Part shown: positions 10,644 to 23,366 of the stretch, piece after piece
Layout of the letters: every line of letters begins with the position of its first letter
Numbering within the stretch: the first letter of the stretch is position 1
Assembly: GCA_046757025.1 (NCBI GenBank)
Contig: JBHHXN010000041.1
Span: 1 to 35,380 of the forward strand
Reading direction: 5' to 3'
DNA: 35,380 nucleotides
From: a bacterium
GTDB lineage: Bacteria > Zhuqueibacterota > Zhuqueibacteria > Oceanimicrobiales > Oceanimicrobiaceae
Made by a program: the position numbers and the translations under genes
Notes under the pieces: model-generated
The model's input: the letters and a program-made list of their open reading frames with translations, nothing else
What the model was told of the DNA's origin: nothing
The model's database searches: none

Positions 10644-10781
10644 ATTATCAATCGCCATGCAATTCTTCTAAGTAAAAGCATTCCAGAAATTCAGCCGTGT
10701 CCCATCTTCGAAATAACTGAGAGATTGAAGTTCGAACAGTAATCTTACTAAGTATTAGTTGGAAAATACTTGAGTAGAATT

Positions 10782-11768
10782 ATGAGTAAGACTCAATTCA
10801 TTGGGAGTGATCCCAAGATAAAAGATATATTACAGTTGGTTCAACACGTAGCTGATACCGATGCCACCGTTTTAATCACCGGAGAAAGCGGGACGGGTAA
10901 AGAACTGATTGCCCGCATCCTTCATGAGGATAGTTCGAGAGCCACAAATCCATTTATTGCAGTGAACTGCGGTGCATTAACAGAAACACTACAGGAATCT
11001 GAATTATTTGGCCATGTGAGAGGCGCGTTTACCGGTGCTTCTTCGAAAAAAATCGGCAAGTTTGAGGCAGCACATCGGGGGACTATATTTCTGGATGAAA
11101 TCAGTGAAATGAGCAAAGTTCTGCAAGTGAAATTGCTCAGGATCCTGCAATCCGGGGAGTATGCGCCAGTCGGAATGGCATATAATTGTTATTCGGATGT
11201 ACGCATTGTTGCGGCGACCAATCAAACGCTACAACCTCTGGTCGAAGCTGGTGAATTTCGACAGGACCTGTATTATCGGTTAAACGTCATTTGTCTGGAC
11301 CTGCCTCCGTTGCGAGAGCGCAAACAAGATATTCCATTGATGTTAGACCATTTTCTGAAAATCTTCAAAAACGTTTATGATAAACCTGAGCTTCAGATAT
11401 GTCCTGAAATTGTGGATGTATTGATGCAGTACGATTATCCAGGTAATGTTCGGGAATTGGAAAATATTATACGCAGGTCGATCATTTTGTGTTATGAGGA
11501 CCGGATTTCGTGCCAATATTTGCCTTCATACATTTTTGAAGAAAGGATTCATACACTGGAAGAGCACCCTAAAGACTTTCATCAGGCAAAAGCACAGGTG
11601 GTGGAAGAATTTGAACGAGATTATTTAACCTCAAAACTCAAGGATTGTGGCGGTATTATCAGTCGGGCAGCCGAGAGCGCAGGCTTGAGTGAACGCAACT
11701 TCCATGAAAAGATGAAGAAATACGGCATTCGAGGAAAGGCCTTTCGAGCAGAAGTGAACGCCGGTTGA
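10782..11768 (+). CDS. Sigma54-dependent enhancer-binding protein without N-terminal sensory/receiver domain
   Basis: Walker A GESGTGKE, ESELFGHVRGAFTGA, FLDEI, RQDLYYRLNV, YPGNVRELEN, C-terminal Fis-type HTH; start is ATG 10782 or TTG 10770. Confidence 0.93.
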   Translation: MSKTQFIGSDPKIKDILQLVQHVADTDATVLITGESGTGKELIARILHEDSSRATNPFIAVNCGALTETLQESELFGHVRGAFTGASSKKIGKFEAAHRGTIFLDEISEMSKVLQVKLLRILQSGEYAPVGMAYNCYSDVRIVAATNQTLQPLVEAGEFRQDLYYRLNVICLDLPPLRERKQDIPLMLDHFLKIFKNVYDKPELQICPEIVDVLMQYDYPGNVRELENIIRRSIILCYEDRISCQYLPSYIFEERIHTLEEHPKDFHQAKAQVVEEFERDYLTSKLKDCGGIISRAAESAGLSERNFHEKMKKYGIRGKAFRAEVNAG

Positions 11769-11872
11769 ATTGAACCCTCAAATAATAGTCATCTACAATG
11801 TTGCTGAAGAAAAGATCATAGTTTAGTGATACCTCCATCTGCTTGAGAGAAGTGCTGTATCCTGGCCAATTA

Positions 11873-11887
11873 TGGCTGCTATTTTGC
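11873..11887 (+). promoter_or_regulatory. Possible second, weaker sigma54 -24/-12 site
   Basis: TGGCTG-CTATT-TTGC with correct GG-N10-GC spacing. Confidence 0.35.
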
Positions 11888-11951
11888 TAACTCTCACAAT
11901 TTTAATCTATTAGAAGATCCTTCCAAAACATTTTCCACGATTCTTTTTTAA

Positions 11952-11966
11952 TGGCACCAATGTTGC
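11952..11966 (+). promoter_or_regulatory. Sigma54 (-24/-12) promoter
   Basis: TGGCAC-CAATG-TTGC, an exact match to consensus TGGCAC-N5-TTGC, between the activator gene and the downstream cluster. Confidence 0.85.
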
Positions 11967-12059
11967 GATTTCTCGAACGAATTTAGCCAAATTTACTCCA
12001 ATCATGTTTGCTTTTTACGCACTTAAAATTTAGTTGGATTTTTGTTTATAGGAGGATAT

Positions 12060-12500
12060 ATGGTGCAGAGAAACAGCGATCAGGTAATTCACTTTTGTCT
12101 CGCTGGAGCAAAAGTAAGTAACGATTGGAACTTGATCTGGCAACTTAAAATGGGACACGTTGTGACAATTGTTGAGAGTGAACACATTTTCAATGGCAAT
12201 TCCATTTTAGCTTCAGCAGATGTTCTTATTTTAGATTGCAATGAAAAACAAGAGTCGTATTCGCGATTTTTACAGAATTTACGAAAAATGAAAAGCGATT
12301 TTCCTGGACTGTGCATCGTGCTGGTAAATGGCGGGATCGACCAGAAGCAAATTGCTTTGGCGTTCAAAGAAGGAGTGCACGATTATTTCTCTGACCCTTA
12401 TGACGCAATACTGCTGATGGAACGCATCCAATACTTAATCCGAAACAAAAAAAACAATCAGATGGGTTGGGTTGATTCACATCCAGAGTCTATAAACTAA
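12060..12500 (+). CDS. Stand-alone degenerate receiver (REC-like) domain protein
   Basis: ADVLILD, CIVLVNG, ALAFKEGVHDYFSDPYD; conserved Lys of KP replaced by D; GGAGG RBS before ATG 12060. Confidence 0.7.
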   Translation: MVQRNSDQVIHFCLAGAKVSNDWNLIWQLKMGHVVTIVESEHIFNGNSILASADVLILDCNEKQESYSRFLQNLRKMKSDFPGLCIVLVNGGIDQKQIALAFKEGVHDYFSDPYDAILLMERIQYLIRNKKNNQMGWVDSHPESIN

Positions 12501-12770: not shown

Positions 12771-15140
12771 TTGATGAAAACAATAAAAGAGCACCTGGAC
12801 AGGGCAAGTACTCATCAGGAAAACGAGTCGCCATTTCTTACAAGTGAAGAATTCGTGCCTGTTCAAGAAGAAGGTAATGGCTCTGTGACCATAGCATCCA
12901 ATATCAGAACTCCATTCGCGTCAATTTATGAGTGGCCTGGTAATGAAAATATGATGAGCGAGGAAGACCTGGAGGTATCCAGATTCGTAACCTCCTTATA
13001 TGATGAGGAATTTGACTCCGCTGTGTATCAGATAATGGAAGAAGCCTCACAACTCATTTCTGAATATGGGGAGAACCAGGAGGTCACAGCGGAACATTTG
13101 CTGAATGAGCATTTTGACTCACTGGCTACTGAGACAGAAGCAGCAATGGACTTCATAGCTGAGCACGCCGAACAGCTTGAGCAGGAAACGATTACGGAAT
13201 CAGAACTTGAAGCCATGGTAAACGACTGGCGGGTGGGTCGGACACCACTAACTCCAGGTCAACAGGAATATTTCTGGGGTTGGGCCAAGAAGGCAGTGAA
13301 ATGGGCCAAAAAGAAAGTCAAGGCGGTCGGGAAATGGGCTTTGAAGAAAGCTCTCCGCAAATTGAAAAGACTGGTAAGACCGGTTCTGAAACAGGTCTTG
13401 AAAAAAGCCATCAATTGGCTGCCATCAGCGTTACGTCCTATAGCTCGGCGTCTCGCCAAAAAGATTTTGAAGAAAGTCTCGGAGGCCGAGTTCGAGGATC
13501 CTGAGTACGAAAATCTCTCGGAAGTGGGTGCCATTCAGCATGAGCTGGATTTGCAATTAGCCCATCTGTTGTATTCGGAAGACGAAGAAGAGCAGGACGC
13601 AGCGGTTTCTGAGTTTATGCTTGAGGCCAATCAAGGTCCCGAGGATGCCGTCGTAAGGCTGCAGTCTGCCCGCGAAAGGTTTATCCAGGAAATCAGTGAG
13701 TTGGAAGATGAAGCAGACGTTGAGCCAGCGGTCGAACGATTTATTCCAGCTCTTCTGCCAGCTCTCAAATTAGGGCTTAAACTCATCGGTCGCCGCAAAG
13801 TTGTCAATTTCATCGCCAAGTATGTCGCCAAATTTATCAAGCGATTTGTGGGTAGAAAGTATGCCAAACGATTGTCTCGCGCAATCGTGGATGCCGGTTT
13901 GCGTTTGATTCATCTTGAAACGAACGAAGCAGACGAGCTCGAAGCCGCTGCCAGCGCAGTTGCAGGGGTGGTTGAAGACACGGTTCGAGAAGCTGCCGGC
14001 TTACCAGAACATATTCTCGAGGATGAGGCGCTGTTGGAAGGATTTCTGCTCGAAGCGTTTGAAAAAGCCGCCGCAGCAAACCTGCCGCAAGTGCTTCCTG
14101 AAAGTGTTTACGAGGATAGACCCGAACTGCGTGAGACTTCGCACCGCAAAGGCGCCTGGGTGATGCTGCCCAAAGGCAAACGAAAGCGTTTTAAAAAATA
14201 CACAAAGGTTATCGACGTCGTGATTACGCCGCATGCAGCCAAAATGATTAAGACGCATGGTAAACGTTCGCTCTCGACCTATTTTCAAGAAAAATTGAAA
14301 TTGCCAGCAGGTAAAATAGTAAAAGCGCGGCTCCATCTTTTTGAAGCCATGGTAGGCACGCGCTTAAGCGACATCAGTCGAAACGACCCAAGCCTTTCAT
14401 CTCATCTGCCAGTCGGCCGCGAATACGAGCACTTGCACCCCTTGACTCCCGAAGCAGCTGCCATGCTTTTAAATGAACCCGGCCTCGGAAGAGAGTACCA
14501 GGAAGCGTATCATTCCGACCGGACGCCAGGCAATGATGGCGGCAGGCGCGTCTATTTTATTGAAACAGAAGACGTACCTTACCTCGCGGGTAAAAAACAA
14601 CTTCCTCGCCTGTCTGAAGCCAGGCTCACGTTTGATTTTCCGGCAAACGAGGTCAAGATCTTCGCTTTTTTAAATGAAGGACGGGCGCAGGAAATCGCAC
14701 GAAAAATTCGACGTCAGGAACCTCCTGGGCAAATTTTAAACACGGTGTCTTCTGTCATGCGCAGTTTAATCGATGAAGCATTGAGCTGTAAAGTTCACCG
14801 CCATACAAGGGTGTTGCATGCGTCGCTGGCACCTGAAGCTATGATCGGAAATGGTTTGGGCCGGCTGCCTGCAAATATGCGTACGAAACTCCCTGTAACA
14901 ATTACAGAATGGGTGGGGCGAGGTCTGAAAAACTTTTTTTCCGAAAACGCTCAAGACTTCGTTTCGGCCACGGAAGACGAAGCAGATGGAGTAACGATGT
15001 TGATGACGATATCCGATCCTCCTGGTCTTGTAAATCTTCGCAAGATGATTGCTGGTGCCTCAACCCAATTTAGCCGCAACGGTATTCATGGGCAGGTTCA
15101 AGTGAACGTAAAGGTAATAGCCGGTTTTTACTATGAATGA
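12771..15140 (+). CDS. Hypothetical 789-aa protein: SPF/acidic leader, alternating acidic tracts and cationic amphipathic segments, C-terminal globular region
   Basis: Long ORF with AAGGAGG RBS (TTG 12771 or ATG 12774); charge-segregated composition is visible in the translation. Confidence 0.85.
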   Translation: MMKTIKEHLDRASTHQENESPFLTSEEFVPVQEEGNGSVTIASNIRTPFASIYEWPGNENMMSEEDLEVSRFVTSLYDEEFDSAVYQIMEEASQLISEYGENQEVTAEHLLNEHFDSLATETEAAMDFIAEHAEQLEQETITESELEAMVNDWRVGRTPLTPGQQEYFWGWAKKAVKWAKKKVKAVGKWALKKALRKLKRLVRPVLKQVLKKAINWLPSALRPIARRLAKKILKKVSEAEFEDPEYENLSEVGAIQHELDLQLAHLLYSEDEEEQDAAVSEFMLEANQGPEDAVVRLQSARERFIQEISELEDEADVEPAVERFIPALLPALKLGLKLIGRRKVVNFIAKYVAKFIKRFVGRKYAKRLSRAIVDAGLRLIHLETNEADELEAAASAVAGVVEDTVREAAGLPEHILEDEALLEGFLLEAFEKAAAANLPQVLPESVYEDRPELRETSHRKGAWVMLPKGKRKRFKKYTKVIDVVITPHAAKMIKTHGKRSLSTYFQEKLKLPAGKIVKARLHLFEAMVGTRLSDISRNDPSLSSHLPVGREYEHLHPLTPEAAAMLLNEPGLGREYQEAYHSDRTPGNDGGRRVYFIETEDVPYLAGKKQLPRLSEARLTFDFPANEVKIFAFLNEGRAQEIARKIRRQEPPGQILNTVSSVMRSLIDEALSCKVHRHTRVLHASLAPEAMIGNGLGRLPANMRTKLPVTITEWVGRGLKNFFSENAQDFVSATEDEADGVTMLMTISDPPGLVNLRKMIAGASTQFSRNGIHGQVQVNVKVIAGFYYE

Positions 15141-16386
15141 GTACGCTCAAATTATTAAGAAGCAATTGACCCGTCAGGTGCAGCATTGGGCATTTGCTGC
15201 GTCGAGGTTGCAGAACCTCGAAGATTACACTTCGCCCGACGCCTGGCAAGAGCTTGAGCGCTATCTTGGCGTGGCCATTCGGAGTGAGTTGTCGCGTCAT
15301 ATTGACCGTCTTGCGCGGCAAGGACAAAAGCTTTTCTTGAATCTTCGAAGTATCCAATCGTTGCCAGCGCTTGAGGACTTCGGCAGGCAGTTATTGAATT
15401 TCCGAACCAGCTATCTTAGAACGGAAACTGCTGTGGATTTTTACGCAGATGCCATCAATACCAGAACGAACAAGGAGATCGGCGCATTGCTGCGAGCGTG
15501 TGATTTTATCGCCAGAAAAAGTATGACCGATCTCCTGGATAAACTCCACAAGCCAACACCGCCGGTTCTCTGCTATCTCGATGACGGAGTGGGCGCTTCG
15601 ATTCTGAAAGCGGGGCTGCGATTCCCTGGCGGTCCCATTGAAAACCCGGCCGCAACCATTAAAGTTGTTCATCACAATCTTTATCGCCCGACATCGCTCA
15701 TCCACGAGGCGGGTCACCAGGTTGCTCACATACTCGGGTGGAATCGTGAACTGGCTGCAAGTTTAGAACAAGCCCTTGGCAAATATGACAGTGAAGTAGC
15801 GGAAACCTGGGGAAGTTGGGCGTCTGAGATTGCGGCAGATACCTTTGCTTTTGTTCATACGGGTTACGGTTCGGTTGCGGCGCTACATGACGTTGTGGAT
15901 GGTGGTGCGAGCAAAGTCTTTCGATTTTTGCCCGGAGATCCACATCCAATCGCTTACATAAGAGTCTTGTTAGGAACGAGTATGTGTACAGCGCTCTGGG
16001 GCAAAGGGCCATGGGATGAGCTGGCGCTTGCCTGGCAACACCGATACCCACTTAATCAAAAACAGTTGCACGTTTTCGAGTTGCTTAATAAATCGTTGCC
16101 GCTGCTTCCAAAAGCAGTGGAAACGTGTCTGATGACGCCAATGCGATCATTTGGTGGACAAAATTTGATTCAGCATATAAATCCCGAGCGAGTTAAGCCG
16201 GAAAGTCTGGCTGAGTTGGAACGCAGCGCCGGCAAAGCGCTTTTTCATTCGGAGCACTGGGTGCAGACTGAAGCGCTACGATTGTTAGCACTTACTGCTT
16301 TGAGATGCGCTACATTACCCGACGAAGCCTTATCAACATACCGCCAACAGAGGGCCTGGATGCTCAAGTTAGGCGGCATCATTTAA
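15133..16386 (+). CDS. Putative zinc metallopeptidase (HExxH, gluzincin/M48-like motif order)
   Basis: SLIHEAGHQVAH, downstream WASEIAADTFA and GDPHP; ATGAATGA 8-nt overlap with the upstream gene. Confidence 0.7.
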   Translation: MNEYAQIIKKQLTRQVQHWAFAASRLQNLEDYTSPDAWQELERYLGVAIRSELSRHIDRLARQGQKLFLNLRSIQSLPALEDFGRQLLNFRTSYLRTETAVDFYADAINTRTNKEIGALLRACDFIARKSMTDLLDKLHKPTPPVLCYLDDGVGASILKAGLRFPGGPIENPAATIKVVHHNLYRPTSLIHEAGHQVAHILGWNRELAASLEQALGKYDSEVAETWGSWASEIAADTFAFVHTGYGSVAALHDVVDGGASKVFRFLPGDPHPIAYIRVLLGTSMCTALWGKGPWDELALAWQHRYPLNQKQLHVFELLNKSLPLLPKAVETCLMTPMRSFGGQNLIQHINPERVKPESLAELERSAGKALFHSEHWVQTEALRLLALTALRCATLPDEALSTYRQQRAWMLKLGGII

Positions 16387-16668: not shown

Positions 16669-17850
16669 ATGTTTAGAAGAATAGCACGAGGAATTGCGGG
16701 CGGTGCAAACACCTTATTCAAACTGCACCCACTCGAACTGAGTGCCTTACTGGAAGCAGCATGGGAATTCAGGGTTCATCAATCACCACTTCAGGCTGGA
16801 CACCCGAATCGTCGCAGCGACACACCTGAACTGCCGAGGTATATCCTCAACCTCTTTGATTTTTTTTCTGGCGGGAATACAACAGGTAATTCACTGAACG
16901 CCGTTGTGCAGAGAATGTTTGGCGAGGTCAGGTGGCACCACCTGATCTACGCTTACATGATCGAGAATACCCGCGTGTATGAGATTTTTGAAAAAGTTTT
17001 GTTTGAATACCTGCACGGCGAACGTCTCGGCCCGCCACTTCCGGATGCTCAGCACTGGCTTCGAAACACGGAAGAGTTGTTTTACAGAGATCCGGCACCG
17101 TTTTCTATCTACGGCGTGGTGAGCGATGTTCGTCCGGATAAGCGCGCGTCCCGGCGTAACGCTTACTACCGAATGTTTGGAATGGAGTTGAATCATGGCG
17201 CAGGCAAAGAAAAGACTTACAATTATCAAAAACCCGAGGTTGCTAACCGCGAATTTGTAGCGACATTTGAGGCTTTTCTACGTGAGGTTTGGATTGGCAT
17301 TTCCAATGTTGGCAATGCAAGCGGAAGCAATCCCACTGATAATGCTGCCATCGCAAACTTGGCGCGTCAGCTCAGCGATATGCTGAGAACCCGCCGGCAA
17401 AACGGCAACCTGTCCCGGCAGGAGTTTTGGTACGTCGCGATGATGTCCTGGTTCCATCTGACCATAGAACCCACAAATCCACCGCTGCCAATTATCGCCT
17501 CTTTGCGCGCTGAAGCACCGAGAGAAGATCAAGTCTTGTTCAAAGTGGCCGAGCGTGTAGGACAGCCGGTCTACAGCCGGGCCTATGATCTGTTTCAACT
17601 TGCCGAGCCCATGTCAAGAATTCTAACTCAGATCGAAATGGAAACTTATAATAATCCAGCAGCTGTGCCTGCACTTTATACTGAAGCTACTAATGGCCCC
17701 GAAGCGGACATGCGAACCATCATCACACACTGGTCGCTGGCAACCGGCAAAGACATGAAAGTTAGAAAAGGCTCGTCGATTTCGCAAATCAAGACCAGTG
17801 GCAATGGGCAAGCCGCAAAGCCAGAGAAGATGGTACTCGAAGCGGTTTAA
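16669..17850 (+). CDS. Hypothetical 393-aa cytoplasmic protein, no assignable family
   Basis: GAAAGGAG RBS before ATG 16669; globular composition with motif-like blocks WHHLIYAYMIENTR, RRNAYYRMFG, SWFHLT. Confidence 0.8.
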   Translation: MFRRIARGIAGGANTLFKLHPLELSALLEAAWEFRVHQSPLQAGHPNRRSDTPELPRYILNLFDFFSGGNTTGNSLNAVVQRMFGEVRWHHLIYAYMIENTRVYEIFEKVLFEYLHGERLGPPLPDAQHWLRNTEELFYRDPAPFSIYGVVSDVRPDKRASRRNAYYRMFGMELNHGAGKEKTYNYQKPEVANREFVATFEAFLREVWIGISNVGNASGSNPTDNAAIANLARQLSDMLRTRRQNGNLSRQEFWYVAMMSWFHLTIEPTNPPLPIIASLRAEAPREDQVLFKVAERVGQPVYSRAYDLFQLAEPMSRILTQIEMETYNNPAAVPALYTEATNGPEADMRTIITHWSLATGKDMKVRKGSSISQIKTSGNGQAAKPEKMVLEAV

Positions 17851-17968: not shown

Positions 17969-20461
17969 ATGTCCTCCAGAAAACATTTAACGTTTCAATC
18001 CAAAAAGCCAATTGTGACAGATATTTCTCCATTTATGACTGAGCTGCTGATTGACGAGGAAGATCAAGAAAATTCTGGCGGTCGAATTGGAGCGTTTAAT
18101 CAGAATCAAATAGAACGATCTATTCTTCCTGAACAGGCCTTCAAAGAGGAAGCGAGTACTGGCGCCGAATCTGACGAGTTTGACATTTCTGATGCGGAAT
18201 GGGATGACGAAGATATCATTGCTGATGAAATTATGGAAACAGAATATGCATCTGAGGATGACGACGATGACGAAATGGTTTCAGAAGGAAAGTGTTGTGA
18301 ACAATGCAGGGCTCGACAAAAAGAGGCAGAATATGAATATTTTTATGAAGATTTAGAAGATGAAGATTTGGAATCAGAGTACGACGATGAACATGAATTT
18401 TTTTCAGAAACTGACGTAGACCACCTGGATGAAGAACAGGATTGGGATGATGAGGATGAATATGAAGAAAACGAAAGTCTGGAGTATGATGAGTGGGAAT
18501 CCGAATTTGAAGAAGACGAACTTGAGGATTTGATTGAGGATCCGGAAGAATACTACGAAGAACTGGATGACGAGTTTTGGGAGGCTGAAATCCCTGCTGA
18601 AGCATTAGAGCAAGAAATTCATAACGACACTTTCACAAGAGTTCGTAATCAACGTAACGGCTTTCGAAGAGATTGGGAGATTGAAGCTGCAATGCAACTG
18701 CACTGTGACGATCAGACGCCACTCGATTATAAAGCGCTCTATGAACTGTTATCTGGCACTGGTCGCAATCGTCGCGAAGATTGCAATGATAATGATTGGG
18801 ATGCATTCAGGGACATGCGTCGATGTGCCAGTTGTGCTGCATTTACCAGCGGCTTCGGCTGGCGTCGCATGACCTGGGACAAAGACTCACATGCAATCCG
18901 TGAACAGTTCCCATACGTGTGGCTAACTGTCGAACCGCGTCGATACCGACGAAGAGAACAACGTCTCAATAGAAGGGTTGATTTCGCCACCGACATGATG
19001 GATGATTTCTACTTTGATGATGACCATTTCACTCTGTTCTGCAATAAATACCTGTTGCGAGGTCGCAAGCGCTGGGACAGTTGGCGTTGTAACGAGGCTC
19101 CTGATATCAGGCGCCTTCTGGTGGCCACCAAAAGGATAGAAGGAGTTGATCCTGATGGAATCAAAAAAGCGTATAAAGAAGACATACGATTAAACCGCGT
19201 CAGGCGAAGGCATCTCAGGGACCTGGTGCGAGATATCCAAAAGGGTCTGGTAGATTGGTCTCGCAGCAGGCGAGCGAGGCAGCGTAACTTTAGGGCGATC
19301 TTTCCAATCAGGCGCATGTACGAAACCTTGCAAAGGAGGGGCGTGTTCTCTGGATTTACCAAAGGGAACAATACACATGTACTGGACCTTAAACCCAAAG
19401 TTTTTATTCGCTCTTTGCGTTCTCGCTACCACTTGCGGGAGACTTCATTACGGCGTTTAGAAGAAATTCGTCTGTTGGGGATACGACGACTCCGAACCTT
19501 ACGAAATAACGCCAGAATGCGTTTGAGGGATAATACATTGAATCCAGCTTTACAAAACGTGGCTCAGAATTTTGTAAGAAAAGCAACGGGCTGTCTCAAT
19601 TACAGCCTGGTGACCTCCCGGGCACAGTCCCAATTGCAGGCGCTACGCTCTGGCAGGCAAATAACACGTAACCGGGTTAGGGCATTGCGCCCGCGAAGAC
19701 GTCCGCGTATCCGCCGGCATCGAGAGCTTCAAGAACGCAGGGTTATCGCGGAAACACTCAACAAGCTCTATCACGAACTGGCGATGGAAGCAAATAACAG
19801 TGGACTGTTAAATTCAATCTCAGGAGTATCAACAAATGGAGGGCAGTTTTGGGTCAGGCAAATCGAGGCAGCAGGTAGCGCAGGTCTCGGACTTTGGTTT
19901 GACCAGGCACGGGAACACTATGTGCCCCGCTCTGGACGTATCGTGCGTGACGATTTCTTGATTGACACGCTGGATGCCAGCGGCATGTTCACGCCCGATG
20001 CCTGGGCCTGTATTTCAGAGGATCAGCAAACTCACCAGGCGCAGCCGGACATAAACAAGCTATTCTACGCTTCCCTGACCAATGAGGTCCAAATTGAGCA
20101 GGGGCGAGAACGAGCTTTTCTGAGAACGATCGATAATTTGAAAGACCAAATCGCTCGGACTTCAAACTCAGGCAGAAGACAAAGACTACAAACCCGGCTC
20201 ACTGGTGCAAACTTCGTATTTGGAGAGTACCGGAAAGCATTGATAATGATCGCGAAAATAAAAGAAAACCAGATATTAAACGGCATCGATCGCGAAGTGT
20301 CGGCTGCTCGCAGAGCAGGGGAATCGGCGCCACAATGTCAGAATTGGGCCTGGAAGCCAGCAAAGCAAGGCAAAGGTGAGAAAGCCATGACTCTGCTCAG
20401 GCAGAAATTCGGGATTCAGTGTAAGTCAGGTGCGGCAGCGACAACCTCCACTTTTGTTTAA
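17969..20461 (+). CDS. Hypothetical 830-aa protein: SPF motif, ~215-aa Asp/Glu-rich leader, extremely Arg-rich body
   Basis: AAAGGTG RBS; composition of the translation. Confidence 0.8.
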   Translation: MSSRKHLTFQSKKPIVTDISPFMTELLIDEEDQENSGGRIGAFNQNQIERSILPEQAFKEEASTGAESDEFDISDAEWDDEDIIADEIMETEYASEDDDDDEMVSEGKCCEQCRARQKEAEYEYFYEDLEDEDLESEYDDEHEFFSETDVDHLDEEQDWDDEDEYEENESLEYDEWESEFEEDELEDLIEDPEEYYEELDDEFWEAEIPAEALEQEIHNDTFTRVRNQRNGFRRDWEIEAAMQLHCDDQTPLDYKALYELLSGTGRNRREDCNDNDWDAFRDMRRCASCAAFTSGFGWRRMTWDKDSHAIREQFPYVWLTVEPRRYRRREQRLNRRVDFATDMMDDFYFDDDHFTLFCNKYLLRGRKRWDSWRCNEAPDIRRLLVATKRIEGVDPDGIKKAYKEDIRLNRVRRRHLRDLVRDIQKGLVDWSRSRRARQRNFRAIFPIRRMYETLQRRGVFSGFTKGNNTHVLDLKPKVFIRSLRSRYHLRETSLRRLEEIRLLGIRRLRTLRNNARMRLRDNTLNPALQNVAQNFVRKATGCLNYSLVTSRAQSQLQALRSGRQITRNRVRALRPRRRPRIRRHRELQERRVIAETLNKLYHELAMEANNSGLLNSISGVSTNGGQFWVRQIEAAGSAGLGLWFDQAREHYVPRSGRIVRDDFLIDTLDASGMFTPDAWACISEDQQTHQAQPDINKLFYASLTNEVQIEQGRERAFLRTIDNLKDQIARTSNSGRRQRLQTRLTGANFVFGEYRKALIMIAKIKENQILNGIDREVSAARRAGESAPQCQNWAWKPAKQGKGEKAMTLLRQKFGIQCKSGAAATTSTFV

Positions 20462-20484: not shown

Positions 20485-21759
20485 ATGCTTTCTGATAAAG
20501 AAGATCTCGATCTGAGCATAAAATTTGTTACTCCATTTCTCAATGAATCAATTTTCGATGAAGAAGAATATGAAAATCAGGTAATGTACAAGTACGAGCC
20601 TGACAATCAATATGAAAGCCAATCCCGGTCTGTAATCGAGCCTGCGGAAGAAGAAACTAGTGAAGCGGAGGCTGAAGAATATTATGAATTCGAAGATGGG
20701 TTTGATAATGAGTTTGTAGATGAGCAATTCGAAGAATACAAAGATGAATTCGAGGAATTCAATGAGGATTTTGATTATGAGGTGGAACTCCAGAGAGAGG
20801 ATTGGGAACAGGAATGGGCTGATTTCCAATTAGAAGATTCAGATTCGCTCAAAGAAGTCAAATCTACGATGCAATCTATTCTAAAAGCTAAAACACCGTC
20901 AGAGAAACGGATAAATCAACTAAAACAATTATTCGAGGAAAAGGTGCCACTGTTTGATTCCCGGTTGATCCTGAGGAAACTGATTAATAATACCAATGAA
21001 GGCCGGCTTCTTAAGAAGTGTGTTCCTCAATATTCTCCACGCCGCAGACTGCTTCGCCTCCTGTACTGGAGAACAAAAGGCGCAGACATTACGAAACGAG
21101 GGGAGATTTTCAGCAGAAGGCTAAAGAAATTACGGGCGAAAGAATCAACAAAGTTAATATGGCCCACGAAAAAGAAATACTGGAAAGAGATGACCGCGTA
21201 TGAAAAAAAAGTCATACGATCATCACATGCCAGCGCAACTATTAGAGCCGAAGCCATGCTAATCGCAGCTAATATTTATGCGAAGCAACTAGATACGCCA
21301 GCCGCCGCCAGCGTTTACTATGAGAAAGCAGTCGGGCTCATACGAAACGGGCAAGCCTATTCCTCATTGAGCGCCTCTGACAGAGAGCTCTTTATAAGGG
21401 AAATCACCTCACGAATCCAGATGATAAAGAAACATTTGTTGCAACAATCAGAAAAACCGACTGCAAGCTCCCTTGCTGAATGCCGAAGTGGTGCTGCCAG
21501 CGATTATTTTATGTCAGGTTATATGGAAGATGCAGTAGCCGTATTTAAAAGCATCTTGAAAATTGACGGCCTAAAATTAGATAATTTCGAAAGGCTACAT
21601 GCGTTGGTTAAACTGGGCGATTTTTACAAAGAATCTGTTCCTGCAGCGGCTTTGTATTATTATGAAAAATATCTTGAGTCAGGCTTGCTCCATGGTGATT
21701 CGAAACAATCTTTAAAAAAGGCAATAACTCGACTGAACAAGCGTGTTGACAGTCCATAA
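20485..21759 (+). CDS. Hypothetical 424-aa protein: TPF motif, ~120-aa acidic leader, basic middle, TPR-like C-terminus
   Basis: AASVYYEKAV, AVAVFKSILKI, ALVKLGDFY...AALYYYEKYL TPR-like helices. Confidence 0.75.
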   Translation: MLSDKEDLDLSIKFVTPFLNESIFDEEEYENQVMYKYEPDNQYESQSRSVIEPAEEETSEAEAEEYYEFEDGFDNEFVDEQFEEYKDEFEEFNEDFDYEVELQREDWEQEWADFQLEDSDSLKEVKSTMQSILKAKTPSEKRINQLKQLFEEKVPLFDSRLILRKLINNTNEGRLLKKCVPQYSPRRRLLRLLYWRTKGADITKRGEIFSRRLKKLRAKESTKLIWPTKKKYWKEMTAYEKKVIRSSHASATIRAEAMLIAANIYAKQLDTPAAASVYYEKAVGLIRNGQAYSSLSASDRELFIREITSRIQMIKKHLLQQSEKPTASSLAECRSGAASDYFMSGYMEDAVAVFKSILKIDGLKLDNFERLHALVKLGDFYKESVPAAALYYYEKYLESGLLHGDSKQSLKKAITRLNKRVDSP

Positions 21760-21785: not shown

Positions 21786-22892
21786 ATGCAAAAAAGTGAA
21801 TTTAGTTCGAGGCAGAAGCTGTCTGGAAATCCCTTCCTGCATGCTTTTGAAGCAATTCAGAATGAATCCATCGAACAACTTAATGATGAATATTATAAAC
21901 TCGACGATGAGTTTGCTGATGAAGGGTCAACTGGGAGAAAGGGGATATATTCGGAATCCCCTTTCATTGCGATGGTTCAAGAAGGAGTAGAGCTTGAATC
22001 AGAAGTGTTTGGTGCCAACCAAATGATGTGGGTGCGCAATCCCCTGGCAGTTCCGAATCGCTGGATCTGCCGTCTGGACATAAGATACGAAATCACACCG
22101 TGGAGTGGGGGGCGAAGGCTGCGGGGCTCCGGAAGAGGAACCGGTACTCTAATCGGGAACCGTCACGTTTTGACCGCGGCACATAACATCCAGATGTACG
22201 ATCCAGTACGTAAAAACTATCTCAGAGCTACCAGGATCATGGTCACACCGGCCCATAATGGCAGCACTTCGCCGCCAATTATGGGAGTAGAAGCAGATCT
22301 ATCCAGGTCAAGAACACCGCGAGGTTGGCAAGTGGCTCGTAGAATCGCTGCAAACGGTGCAGCCAATATGGCTGGAGAAGTCGCGACCAACCGCCACGAC
22401 TACGCGTTACTCACTTTGAGAAGGTCCATAGGACAAACGCAAGTACGAGTGCTGGGCAGTCGACTGGGCTACTGGGGGAACAACGGATCGAACGGTATAG
22501 CCCACTTTCGACGCCAGAATCCGACCGTTTTAAAAGACAACAAAGTCTTTGTCGCAGGCTATGGTTATGATAACTGTGTGAGGACGGTCCGCCGAGTGAC
22601 TGCAACTCCAGGAATCCCCCTGGGCAGTCAGTTAATTGCGTCGGGTCGGCTACGACTTTTCCGAGTCAGAGGTAAAAACAGCATCTTTATTGGTAGAAGC
22701 ATGGCCCACGACGTAGATACTTGCGGCGGTCAAAGTGGTGCGTCAGTCTGGATTGAGCGGAATGGAGTGTTTGACTTGGTAGGAATTCATACGGGTGCAG
22801 TCAGTCTCTCCAATGGTGTGCGAGTAAACCACACCGTCCGTGTCACCCGCGAATTTATGAGGAACGTTCGATATTGGCAAAGGCACACTTAG
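21786..22892 (+). CDS. Trypsin-fold serine protease, V8/glutamyl endopeptidase-like, with acidic pro-leader
   Basis: GTGTLIG, VLTAAHN (His), HDYALL (Asp), DTCGGQSG (Ser), VGIHTG; predicted mature start ELESE|VFG. Confidence 0.88.
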   Translation: MQKSEFSSRQKLSGNPFLHAFEAIQNESIEQLNDEYYKLDDEFADEGSTGRKGIYSESPFIAMVQEGVELESEVFGANQMMWVRNPLAVPNRWICRLDIRYEITPWSGGRRLRGSGRGTGTLIGNRHVLTAAHNIQMYDPVRKNYLRATRIMVTPAHNGSTSPPIMGVEADLSRSRTPRGWQVARRIAANGAANMAGEVATNRHDYALLTLRRSIGQTQVRVLGSRLGYWGNNGSNGIAHFRRQNPTVLKDNKVFVAGYGYDNCVRTVRRVTATPGIPLGSQLIASGRLRLFRVRGKNSIFIGRSMAHDVDTCGGQSGASVWIERNGVFDLVGIHTGAVSLSNGVRVNHTVRVTREFMRNVRYWQRHT

Positions 22893-22958: not shown

Positions 22959-23366
22959 ATGAAAAACAAAAATCTATCGTCAAGAATATTGACAACATTA
23001 TGTGGTTTGCTGACCGCAGTCTTGTTGATGGGCTCGCTTTGTACCAAGCCCATCGATCTGGAGCCATTCAAAGAACTAGCCCGAAATGCCGATTGTGCAG
23101 AGATCAGCAATCGTCTGTTTCTGATCGATAAGAAAATGGTATTCTGGGAGCGCCTGGGCAATTGTCCCGATAATAGTTTTGCGCAAACGCTTTACGGCAA
23201 AACGCCGGACGACGTATTGTGTTCGCGCTACGATTCCATCGGCGGTCCTCTGCAATCCTGCAACGATCAATCATACCAGAATATGTTTCAAACCATGGTG
23301 GATAACCTTAATCAACCTGATTTAGGACTTGGGCCAGGCCATGATGTTGAACCGATCTCATTTTAA
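22959..23366 (+). CDS. Small exported Cys-containing protein/possible lipoprotein
   Basis: MKNKNL + hydrophobic stretch ending GSLC; four further Cys; GAGG RBS. Confidence 0.7.
   Translation: MKNKNLSSRILTTLCGLLTAVLLMGSLCTKPIDLEPFKELARNADCAEISNRLFLIDKKMVFWERLGNCPDNSFAQTLYGKTPDDVLCSRYDSIGGPLQSCNDQSYQNMFQTMVDNLNQPDLGLGPGHDVEPISF

What the first reader, a model, noticed from the sequence alone, without database searches (positions are those of the whole stretch)
21786..22892. Leader-bearing V8-like glutamyl endopeptidase as the likely activation switch
Seen: intact His/Asp/Ser triad; Thr in DTCGGQSG and His in VGIHTG; a pro-region ending ELESE|VFG (mature start about nt 22005); an Arg-rich mature domain with only 5 Glu; no signal peptide. 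Established: Thr190 and His213 (chymotrypsin numbering) determine Glu specificity in V8/GluC-type enzymes. Inference: it can auto-activate after E73, resists self-digestion, and would strip the Glu-rich leaders of its neighbours, giving a self-amplifying cascade.
Basis: partly seen in the sequence, partly recalled or inferred. Interest (0 to 1): 0.75.

Follow-up and report, generated by a model that had tools for sequence, protein, structure and literature searches.

The report
Protease passenger of undescribed delivery system
The gene encodes a protease that likely cuts after glutamate and likely switches itself on, but it is an optional passenger of a widespread three-gene cluster with no known family, whose acidic N-terminal tags likely stand in for secretion signals on a changing set of probably antibacterial enzymes.

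Summary
In detail: intact triad (H133/D205/S317), Thr190 = T312, His213 = H335, junction E73|V74, 5 Glu and 39 Arg in the mature part, no signal peptide. Self-activation is plausible: 53 of 61 His213 relatives have Glu at their own junction, and one clade that lost His213 has Gly there. It is not the system's switch. The upstream 789/417/393-aa genes form a conserved core in bacteria of many phyla and in methanogens; only 14 of 48 core genomes have this protease family, and 6 have a Glu-type copy beside the core. Where the protease changed specificity, leaders and linkers stayed Glu-rich. The leader sits on interchangeable cargo (20 of 45 scanned ORFs are peptidoglycan-related), and in the 830-aa neighbour it replaces the signal-peptide-like start of its homologues. 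Best reading: a self-activating glutamyl endopeptidase carried as cargo by an undescribed leader-directed release system for antibacterial enzymes; the invariant HExxH protein is the better candidate for the general processing enzyme. Export, killing and all cleavages are inferred, not shown.

The parts
21786..22892 (+). F368: V8/BIGEP-like glutamyl endopeptidase with acidic leader (cargo)
21786..22004 (+). 73-aa acidic leader of F368 with two [SN]PF motifs, ending E-x-E
   Evidence: weak leader-HMM match, 8.9 bits, residues 13-30
22005..22889 (+). predicted mature protease: V74, H133, D205, T312, S317, H335, A338
12771..15140 (+). core gene A (789 aa): twin-SPF acidic leader, two cationic amphipathic segments between acidic spacers, C-terminal domain; no known family
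15133..16386 (+). core gene B (417 aa): three-helix bundle plus zincin-like domain with invariant H191-E-x-x-H195, E232, D236; candidate general processing enzyme
16669..17850 (+). core gene C (393 aa from the conserved ATG; open frame from 16594): all-helical, no fold match
17969..20461 (+). cargo D830: 216-aa acidic leader (17969-18616) on an Arg-rich domain whose homologues carry signal-peptide-like starts and weak CYTH matches
20485..21759 (+). cargo E424: about 112-aa acidic leader on a Lys/Arg-rich domain of no known family
11952..11966 (+). exact sigma-54-type -24/-12 match between a sigma-54 activator gene (10770-11768) and a receiver-like gene (12042-12500); possible promoter of the cluster
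   Evidence: function untested

Best explanation
F368 is a V8-type protease that likely cuts after Glu and likely activates itself at E73|V74, and it is an optional cargo, not the switch, of a three-gene core (A789-B417-C393) that likely releases acidic-leader-tagged, probably antibacterial enzymes from the cell. Shown: the catalytic and S1 residues; the conserved A-B-C order followed by variable leader-bearing genes; the protease's absence from most core genomes; a leader in place of a signal-peptide-like start on D830. Inferred steps: (1) cargo is made in the cytoplasm with a twin-SPF, Glu-rich leader, often as polyproteins with internal acidic linkers; (2) the leader is read by the core and masks the cationic mature domains; (3) B417, a likely zinc peptidase, processes A789 in front of its cationic amphipathic segments, which would breach a membrane (the producer's for release, or the target's); (4) once released, F368 removes its own leader, frees the V74 amine that completes the S1 pocket, and may then trim Glu-rich leaders of co-released D830, E424 and A789 as an accessory maturase or act on foreign proteins.
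For: Core: A in 41 and B in 44 of 48 loci found through C, spanning actinobacteria, proteobacteria, Bacteroidota, Acidobacteriota, Bacillota and methanogens by record title; not found in 40 relatives of the host. Protease family in 14 of 48 core genomes, 1 of the 13 isolate (NZ_) genomes, and that one has a signal-peptide-like start. Beside the core: 9 of 48, of which 6 Glu-junction/His213 and 3 Gly-junction. Junction follows the S1 pocket: Glu in 53 of 61 His213 rows; Gly in 18 of 24 rows without His213, these 18 being one clade, 100/96. Leaders do not follow it: Glu fraction 0.159 (15 Gly-clade rows) against 0.155 (41 His213 rows); 16 of 16 Gly-clade polyproteins keep a downstream acidic linker (mean 20% Glu), none with an E-x-G-[VI][ILF] site. 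First ORF after C carries the leader motif in 18 of 32 loci of genomes without the protease and 10 of 14 with it (null 1 of 500; the HMM was trained on 27 of these cargo rows). Cargo: 20 of 45 hand-picked ORFs have peptidoglycan-related domains, others amine oxidase, phospholipase D, PhoD, protease; none of 33 leader-type starts has a hydrophobic stretch over 1.8. D830: 3 of 4 homologues begin with a signal-peptide-like stretch (fourth truncated), homology starts right after the leader's end, mature charge +8.1 per 100 aa against -1.4 to -3.8. B417: HExxH, E232, D236 invariant in 36 of 36, HExxH and both acidic residues also in a 38-row set with distant members; model pLDDT 91 with three strands before the HExxH helix. 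A789: two cationic segments (net +8 to +30 and +3 to +15 in 34 of 34) each behind a [EQ]-x-F motif; the second has Gln in 9 of 34, which a strict Glu enzyme would not read.
Against: No export, cleavage or killing was observed. None of the window's A, B, C has a clear membrane-spanning stretch (best 19-residue hydropathy 1.03-1.21), so the core is not a classical translocon. B417's peptidase fold rests on motif and secondary structure: Foldseek gave only weak zinc-peptidase rows (best E 0.32). The signal-peptide swap is shown for one cargo family. The Glu-to-Gly switch is a single evolutionary event; 8 His213 rows have other residues at the junction and 6 rows without His213 keep Glu. Only 13 of 41 His213 relatives have an SPF leader, so much of the family lies outside this system. 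9 of 48 loci do carry the protease, so it is a recurrent partner. Many genomes are incomplete, at most 46 candidates per genome were scored, and more distant Glu-proteases could be missed at E<=1e-8.
Confidence: 0.55

Rival explanations
1. One reading: F368 is the trigger of a self-amplifying cascade; Glu-rich leaders exist as its substrates and keep A789, D830 and E424 inactive until it fires.
For: Likely Glu specificity and self-activation; leaders of neighbours hold 26-28% Glu against 5-7% in their mature parts; the protease recurs beside the core in 9 of 48 loci and inside polyproteins behind acidic linkers; ABP systems use a co-secreted serine protease this way (PMC13460014, abstract and passages).
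Against: 34 of 48 core genomes lack the family; leaders are present without it; Gly-type copies sit among Glu-rich leaders and linkers; D830's leader stands where a signal peptide is in homologues.
Confidence: 0.15
2. The leader is only a charge mask or solubility tag; cargo accumulates harmlessly and is freed by lysis, then trimmed by any available protease. A-B-C times the lysis or protects the producer rather than recognising the leader.
For: No transmembrane channel in the core; mature parts of D830, E424, F368 are strongly cationic; A789 carries cationic amphipathic segments that could lyse the producer; most of the leader is low-complexity.
Against: The twin [ST]PF motif with conserved spacing is shared by A and unrelated cargo across phyla, which points to sequence-specific recognition.
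Confidence: 0.2
3. The leader addresses cargo to an existing machine such as an extracellular contractile injection system, with A-B-C as loading adaptors.
For: The eCIS marker PF14065 is present in 22 of 49 core genomes, the host's included, and in 0 of 14 control genomes.
Against: 27 of 49 lack the marker, among them isolate genomes; in the host it lies on another contig (C32 against C41); no tail genes were seen among the 45 neighbours scanned; cargo of 1000-1700 aa with folded enzymes is large for a tube (inference).
Confidence: 0.1

Closest known systems
Bacterial glutamyl endopeptidases of the V8/BIGEP type (S. aureus V8, B. intermedius BIGEP 1p3c, Thermoactinomyces TS-GSE)
   Same: Chymotrypsin-like triad, Thr190/His213, small residue at 216, mature start V-[IF]-G aligned to BIGEP's N-terminus; Glu before the mature start as in the one auto-activating exception, TS-GSE (PMC5508998 section 8).
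   Different: No Sec signal peptide; the pro-part is a leader shared with unrelated enzymes; relatives occur as modules of polyproteins; very Arg-rich; Asn-Gln-Met in place of the usual Asp-x-Arg near the start.
ABP antibacterial protein systems (AbpT toxin, AbpP serine protease, AbpI immunity; PMC13460014)
   Same: Variable effectors beside a serine protease; cleavage would unmask cationic, amphipathic parts.
   Different: ABP toxin and protease carry Sec signals and an immunity gene, and the protease is a core part; here no signal peptides, an optional protease, cell-wall-type cargo and three core genes of no known family.
PVC/eCIS-associated polymorphic toxins with PVC-metallopeptidase (PMC3482391)
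   Same: An HExxH peptidase linked to variable effectors, often without immunity genes.
   Different: There the peptidase (HExxHxxQ-E) is a domain of the toxin and delivery needs a tail; here B417 is a stand-alone gene with no Pfam match and 27 of 49 genomes lack the eCIS marker.
Protease-precursor antagonism in haloarchaea (PMC12893001, abstract only) and acidic pro-pieces of animal antimicrobial peptides (recalled)
   Same: A precursor cut by a protease to free helical antibacterial segments, as proposed for A789.
   Different: Unrelated sequences; no multi-gene core or shared leader there.

Membership tests
V8/BIGEP-type glutamyl endopeptidase | His-Asp-Ser triad in a chymotrypsin-like domain | tested here: met
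   H133, D205, S317; Pfam Trypsin; profile match to 1p3c E=1e-21
V8/BIGEP-type glutamyl endopeptidase | His213 and Thr/Ser190 in S1 | tested here: met
   H335 and T312, aligned with V8
V8/BIGEP-type glutamyl endopeptidase | No Lys216; mature N-terminus placed to supply the amine | tested here: met
   A338 at 216; V74 aligns with the start of BIGEP and V8 through the family profile; geometry not modelled
V8/BIGEP-type glutamyl endopeptidase | Cleavage after Glu | not testable with these tools
   inferred from S1 residues and junction pattern
V8/BIGEP-type glutamyl endopeptidase | Sec signal peptide plus propeptide | tested here: not met
   no hydrophobic stretch; acidic leader instead. Lowers 'typical member', not 'works like one'
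ABP system | Sec signals on toxin and protease | tested here: not met
ABP system | Serine protease as obligatory core gene | tested here: not met
   14 of 48 core genomes
ABP system | Adjacent immunity gene | tested here: inconclusive
   no immunity family among window genes; the 135-aa gene at 22959 is unassigned
PVC/eCIS cargo system | Contractile tail genes with the cargo | tested here: not met
   none in the window; marker in 22 of 49 genomes, on another contig in the host
Gluzincin metallopeptidase (B417) | HExxH plus downstream Glu ligand, conserved | tested here: met
   H191, E192, H195, E232, D236 invariant
Gluzincin metallopeptidase (B417) | Zincin fold | tested here: inconclusive
   strand-strand-strand-helix order in the model; Foldseek E>=0.32; VIA rows cover only residues 1-113
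Gluzincin metallopeptidase (B417) | Zinc-dependent peptide cleavage | not testable with these tools
   needs assay
Known anti-phage defence system | Match of core genes to PADLOC models | tested here: inconclusive
   no match for A, B, C, D, E at E<=0.01; F368 only a 34-aa LmuA hit at E=9e-4

The most novel reading that the evidence does not exclude
A-B-C is a new, Sec-independent protein release and delivery pathway shared by bacteria of many phyla and methanogenic archaea: a twin-SPF acidic leader replaces the signal peptide and addresses any enzyme to it, cargo is built as polyproteins, B417 arms the membrane-breaching peptides of A789, and self-activating proteases such as F368, whose junction and pocket switched together from Glu to Gly in one clade, ride along as cargo.
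Probability: 0.35. Interest if true: 0.9.

Novelty: categorically new. Interest (0 to 1): 0.72.

Why it matters
The novelty label is for the gene system; the enzyme alone is a new variant of a known family. A portable N-terminal tag that can replace a signal peptide on unrelated enzymes, read by three soluble proteins of no known family, would be a new route for proteins out of cells and a simple tool for secretion engineering. It would explain how methanogens, which have no peptidoglycan, deploy cell-wall hydrolases that lack signal peptides. The protease family also offers a natural test of the open question of what sets Glu specificity: one clade lost His213 and changed its own junction to Gly. 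Cultured hosts (Dyadobacter, Streptomyces, Rhizobacter, Methanosarcina by record title) make it testable.

Tried and rejected
Complex prediction of B417 with the F368 leader: no verdict, score 0.00. No RNA holder listed for the region. The Vps37/Srn2 hit of the B profile (E=9e-4) is read as a coiled-coil artefact. Pfam, NCBIfam, PDB profile and ESM Atlas searches named no family for A, B, C. The Trypsin_2 genome search was uninformative: 49 of 49 genomes and 12 of 14 controls match. No B relative in viral contigs. E424's mature part not found with this query in 48 genomes. Promoter and terminator scans were at chance level; no sigma-54 motif within 500 nt upstream of A in 33 loci. I briefly read the Gly-clade junction as E-x-E plus a two-residue insert; position counts favour a plain Glu-to-Gly change with Glu kept at -3. 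Literature: seven searches for the system and two side searches returned nothing that describes it; the library lacks most subscription papers, and bioRxiv supplements were not open. Five look-ups of earlier scan findings were empty.

Full report
Observation. The ORF at 21786-22892 encodes 368 aa with H133, D205, S317, T312 (190), H335 (213) and A338 (216); E73|V74 falls at nt 22005 and the 295 aa behind it hold 5 Glu and 39 Arg. There is no signal-peptide-like stretch. Its best PDB hits are V8 proteases; a profile of 32 relatives hits B. intermedius glutamyl endopeptidase at E=1e-21 and aligns the predicted mature start with that enzyme's N-terminus.

Is it self-activating? The review PMC5508998 (I read part 2 of 7 of the text, 12 passages, and the first part of section 8) states that V8-type enzymes complete their S1 pocket with the amine of the mature N-terminus, are normally activated by other proteases, and auto-activate when Glu precedes that N-terminus (Thermoactinomyces enzyme, engineered mutants). 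I collected 129 proteins from two searches; 106 had the anchor motifs and 85 gave both a junction and a residue 213. Glu precedes the mature start in 53 of 61 with His213; of 24 without it, 18 have Gly and 6 Glu. The 18 form one clade (100/96), so this is one correlated change, not 18, and the Fisher p-value overstates it. Still, junction and pocket changed together, as expected if the enzyme reads its own junction. All five close relatives with an N-terminus, F368 included, end the leader in E-x-E. Low Glu in the mature part is partly a family trait (2.3% with His213, 3.1% without, 1.7% here). Self-activation is likely but inferred.

What surrounds it. Upstream lie A789, B417 and C393, then D830 and E424, on one strand with gaps of -8 to 282 nt. 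None matches Pfam or NCBIfam. A scan with C found 48 loci among 78 pattern matches; A is in 41 and B in 44, the order A-B-C nearly constant, several misses being contig ends. Record titles span many bacterial phyla plus Methanosarcina and Methanothrix. The core was not found in 40 relatives of the host, which fits lateral spread; the DNA is held by hydrothermal vent metagenome runs of one study. B alone has 249 clusters at E<=1e-30. A distant subtype on Rhizobium, Ensifer and Paraburkholderia plasmids pairs B with small acidic-leader, glycine-rich proteins and peptidoglycan-binding genes.

The cargo. After C comes a variable gene that usually starts with a twin [ST]PF, Glu-rich leader also found on A. 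Of 45 hand-picked neighbouring ORFs, 20 have peptidoglycan-related domains (VanY 9, M15, SLT, lysozyme, amidase, M23, NlpC/P60, PG-binding), others amine oxidase, phospholipase D, PhoD or this protease. Many are polyproteins whose modules are separated by acidic linkers. None of 33 such starts has a signal-peptide-like stretch. D830 is the clearest case: 3 of its 4 homologues begin with a signal-peptide-like sequence (the fourth is truncated), and similarity starts right where D830's 216-aa leader ends; its mature part is far more cationic than theirs. In the host genome E424, D830 and A789 rank 1, 2 and 8 of 2819 ORFs for N-terminal acidity, F368 138th, and I found no leader-bearing cargo elsewhere. 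The leader thus behaves like an alternative export signal and charge mask; this is inference from one swap plus the extracellular nature of the cargo families.

Is F368 the switch? The family profile matches 14 of 48 core genomes at E<=1e-8 (incomplete genomes, at most 46 candidates scored each). Of the 13 isolate genomes only one matches, with a signal-peptide-like start. Beside the core there are 9 copies: 6 of the Glu/His213 type, 3 with Gly at the junction. The first ORF after C has the leader motif in 18 of 32 loci of genomes without the protease and 10 of 14 with it (partly circular, as the HMM was trained on 27 of these rows; null 1 of 500). In the Gly clade the leaders stay 16% Glu with SPF in 15 of 15, and 16 of 16 polyproteins keep Glu-rich linkers with no Gly-type site. 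So the leaders are not shaped as substrates of this protease. Close relatives of F368 appear directly after C, as the last module of a polyprotein, or as the first: an interchangeable module. Against this reading, 9 of 48 is a real association, and a Glu enzyme released with leaders of 26-28% Glu would probably cut them; an accessory role in this locus is open.

The better candidate. B417 keeps H191-E-x-x-H195, E232 and D236 in all 36 aligned copies and in distant ones. Its model (pLDDT 91) has a three-helix bundle, three strands, the HExxH helix and the helix with E232, a gluzincin-like order (family knowledge recalled); Foldseek lists zinc peptidases only weakly (E>=0.32). A789 alternates acidic and cationic amphipathic segments in all 34 copies, each cationic segment behind an [EQ]-x-F motif, with Gln in 9 of 34 at the second; cutting before Phe would suit a thermolysin-like enzyme better than a Glu enzyme (inference). 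C393 is all-helical with no fold match. No core protein of the window has a clear membrane-spanning stretch, so release may come from A-derived pores or lysis, not a channel. An eCIS marker occurs in 22 of 49 genomes, too few to be the required route.

Comparison and verdict. F368 works like V8/BIGEP and meets the sequence tests except for the Sec signal. The system works most like ABP toxins (PMC13460014, abstract and 11 passages) and PVC-peptidase toxins (PMC3482391, 12 passages) but fails their defining features. PMC12893001 was seen as abstract only; PMC12352652 as a search listing only. Seven searches found no description of the system, within a library that lacks most subscription papers. 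The undescribed core and its portable leader carry the interest (0.72).

Noticed in passing
window 10770-12500: A sigma-54 activator gene, an exact -24/-12 match at 11952 and a receiver-like gene precede gene A; activator homologues also precede A in 5 of 48 related loci (L003, L019, L021, L030, L031).
   Followed up: partly
protein family of F368 (P0019, P0082, P0087 and others; L016, L031): One clade of V8-like proteases lost His213 (Leu/Ala/Met/Val) and has Gly at its own junction: a predicted Gly-specific, self-activating offshoot.
   Followed up: yes
L075 10828-18856, L076 10662-16386, L077 10234-19092: Second subtype on plasmids: B homologue with small acidic-leader glycine-zipper-like proteins, a large unknown gene, genes that look like an aminotransferase and an amidohydrolase (by eye), and PG-binding/DUF2272/glucosaminidase or GIY-YIG cargo.
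   Followed up: partly
L001 11106-14456; L006 11228-18746: Methanogens carry leader-tagged polyproteins with SLT, VanY, M15, DUF2272 and PG-binding domains although they have no peptidoglycan.
   Followed up: partly
window 17969-20461: D830's homologues give weak CYTH matches (E 0.005-0.035): a secreted CYTH-like family of unknown function.
   Followed up: partly
window 22959-23366: 135-aa gene right after the protease with a signal-peptide-like start and six cysteines; no family, no homologue in the 48 loci; could be an inhibitor or unrelated.
   Followed up: no
window 7001-9100: Low-GC stretch (34%) with a PIN-domain gene (7604-7990) and a short ORF (8796-9092) that looks like a truncated transposase start (by eye), near the left edge of the island.
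   Followed up: no
window 15315-15378: One run's contig differs at 13 places within 64 nt of gene B's helical N-terminus; loose contig ends at 13092 and 13392 in two runs.
   Followed up: no
window 3853-6895: Omp85-family gene beside a 576-aa unassigned protein with a lipoprotein-like start.
   Followed up: no
L047 10001-16823; L039: Core in altered order (C-A-B) or broken into short frames; frameshifts may be assembly errors.
   Followed up: no
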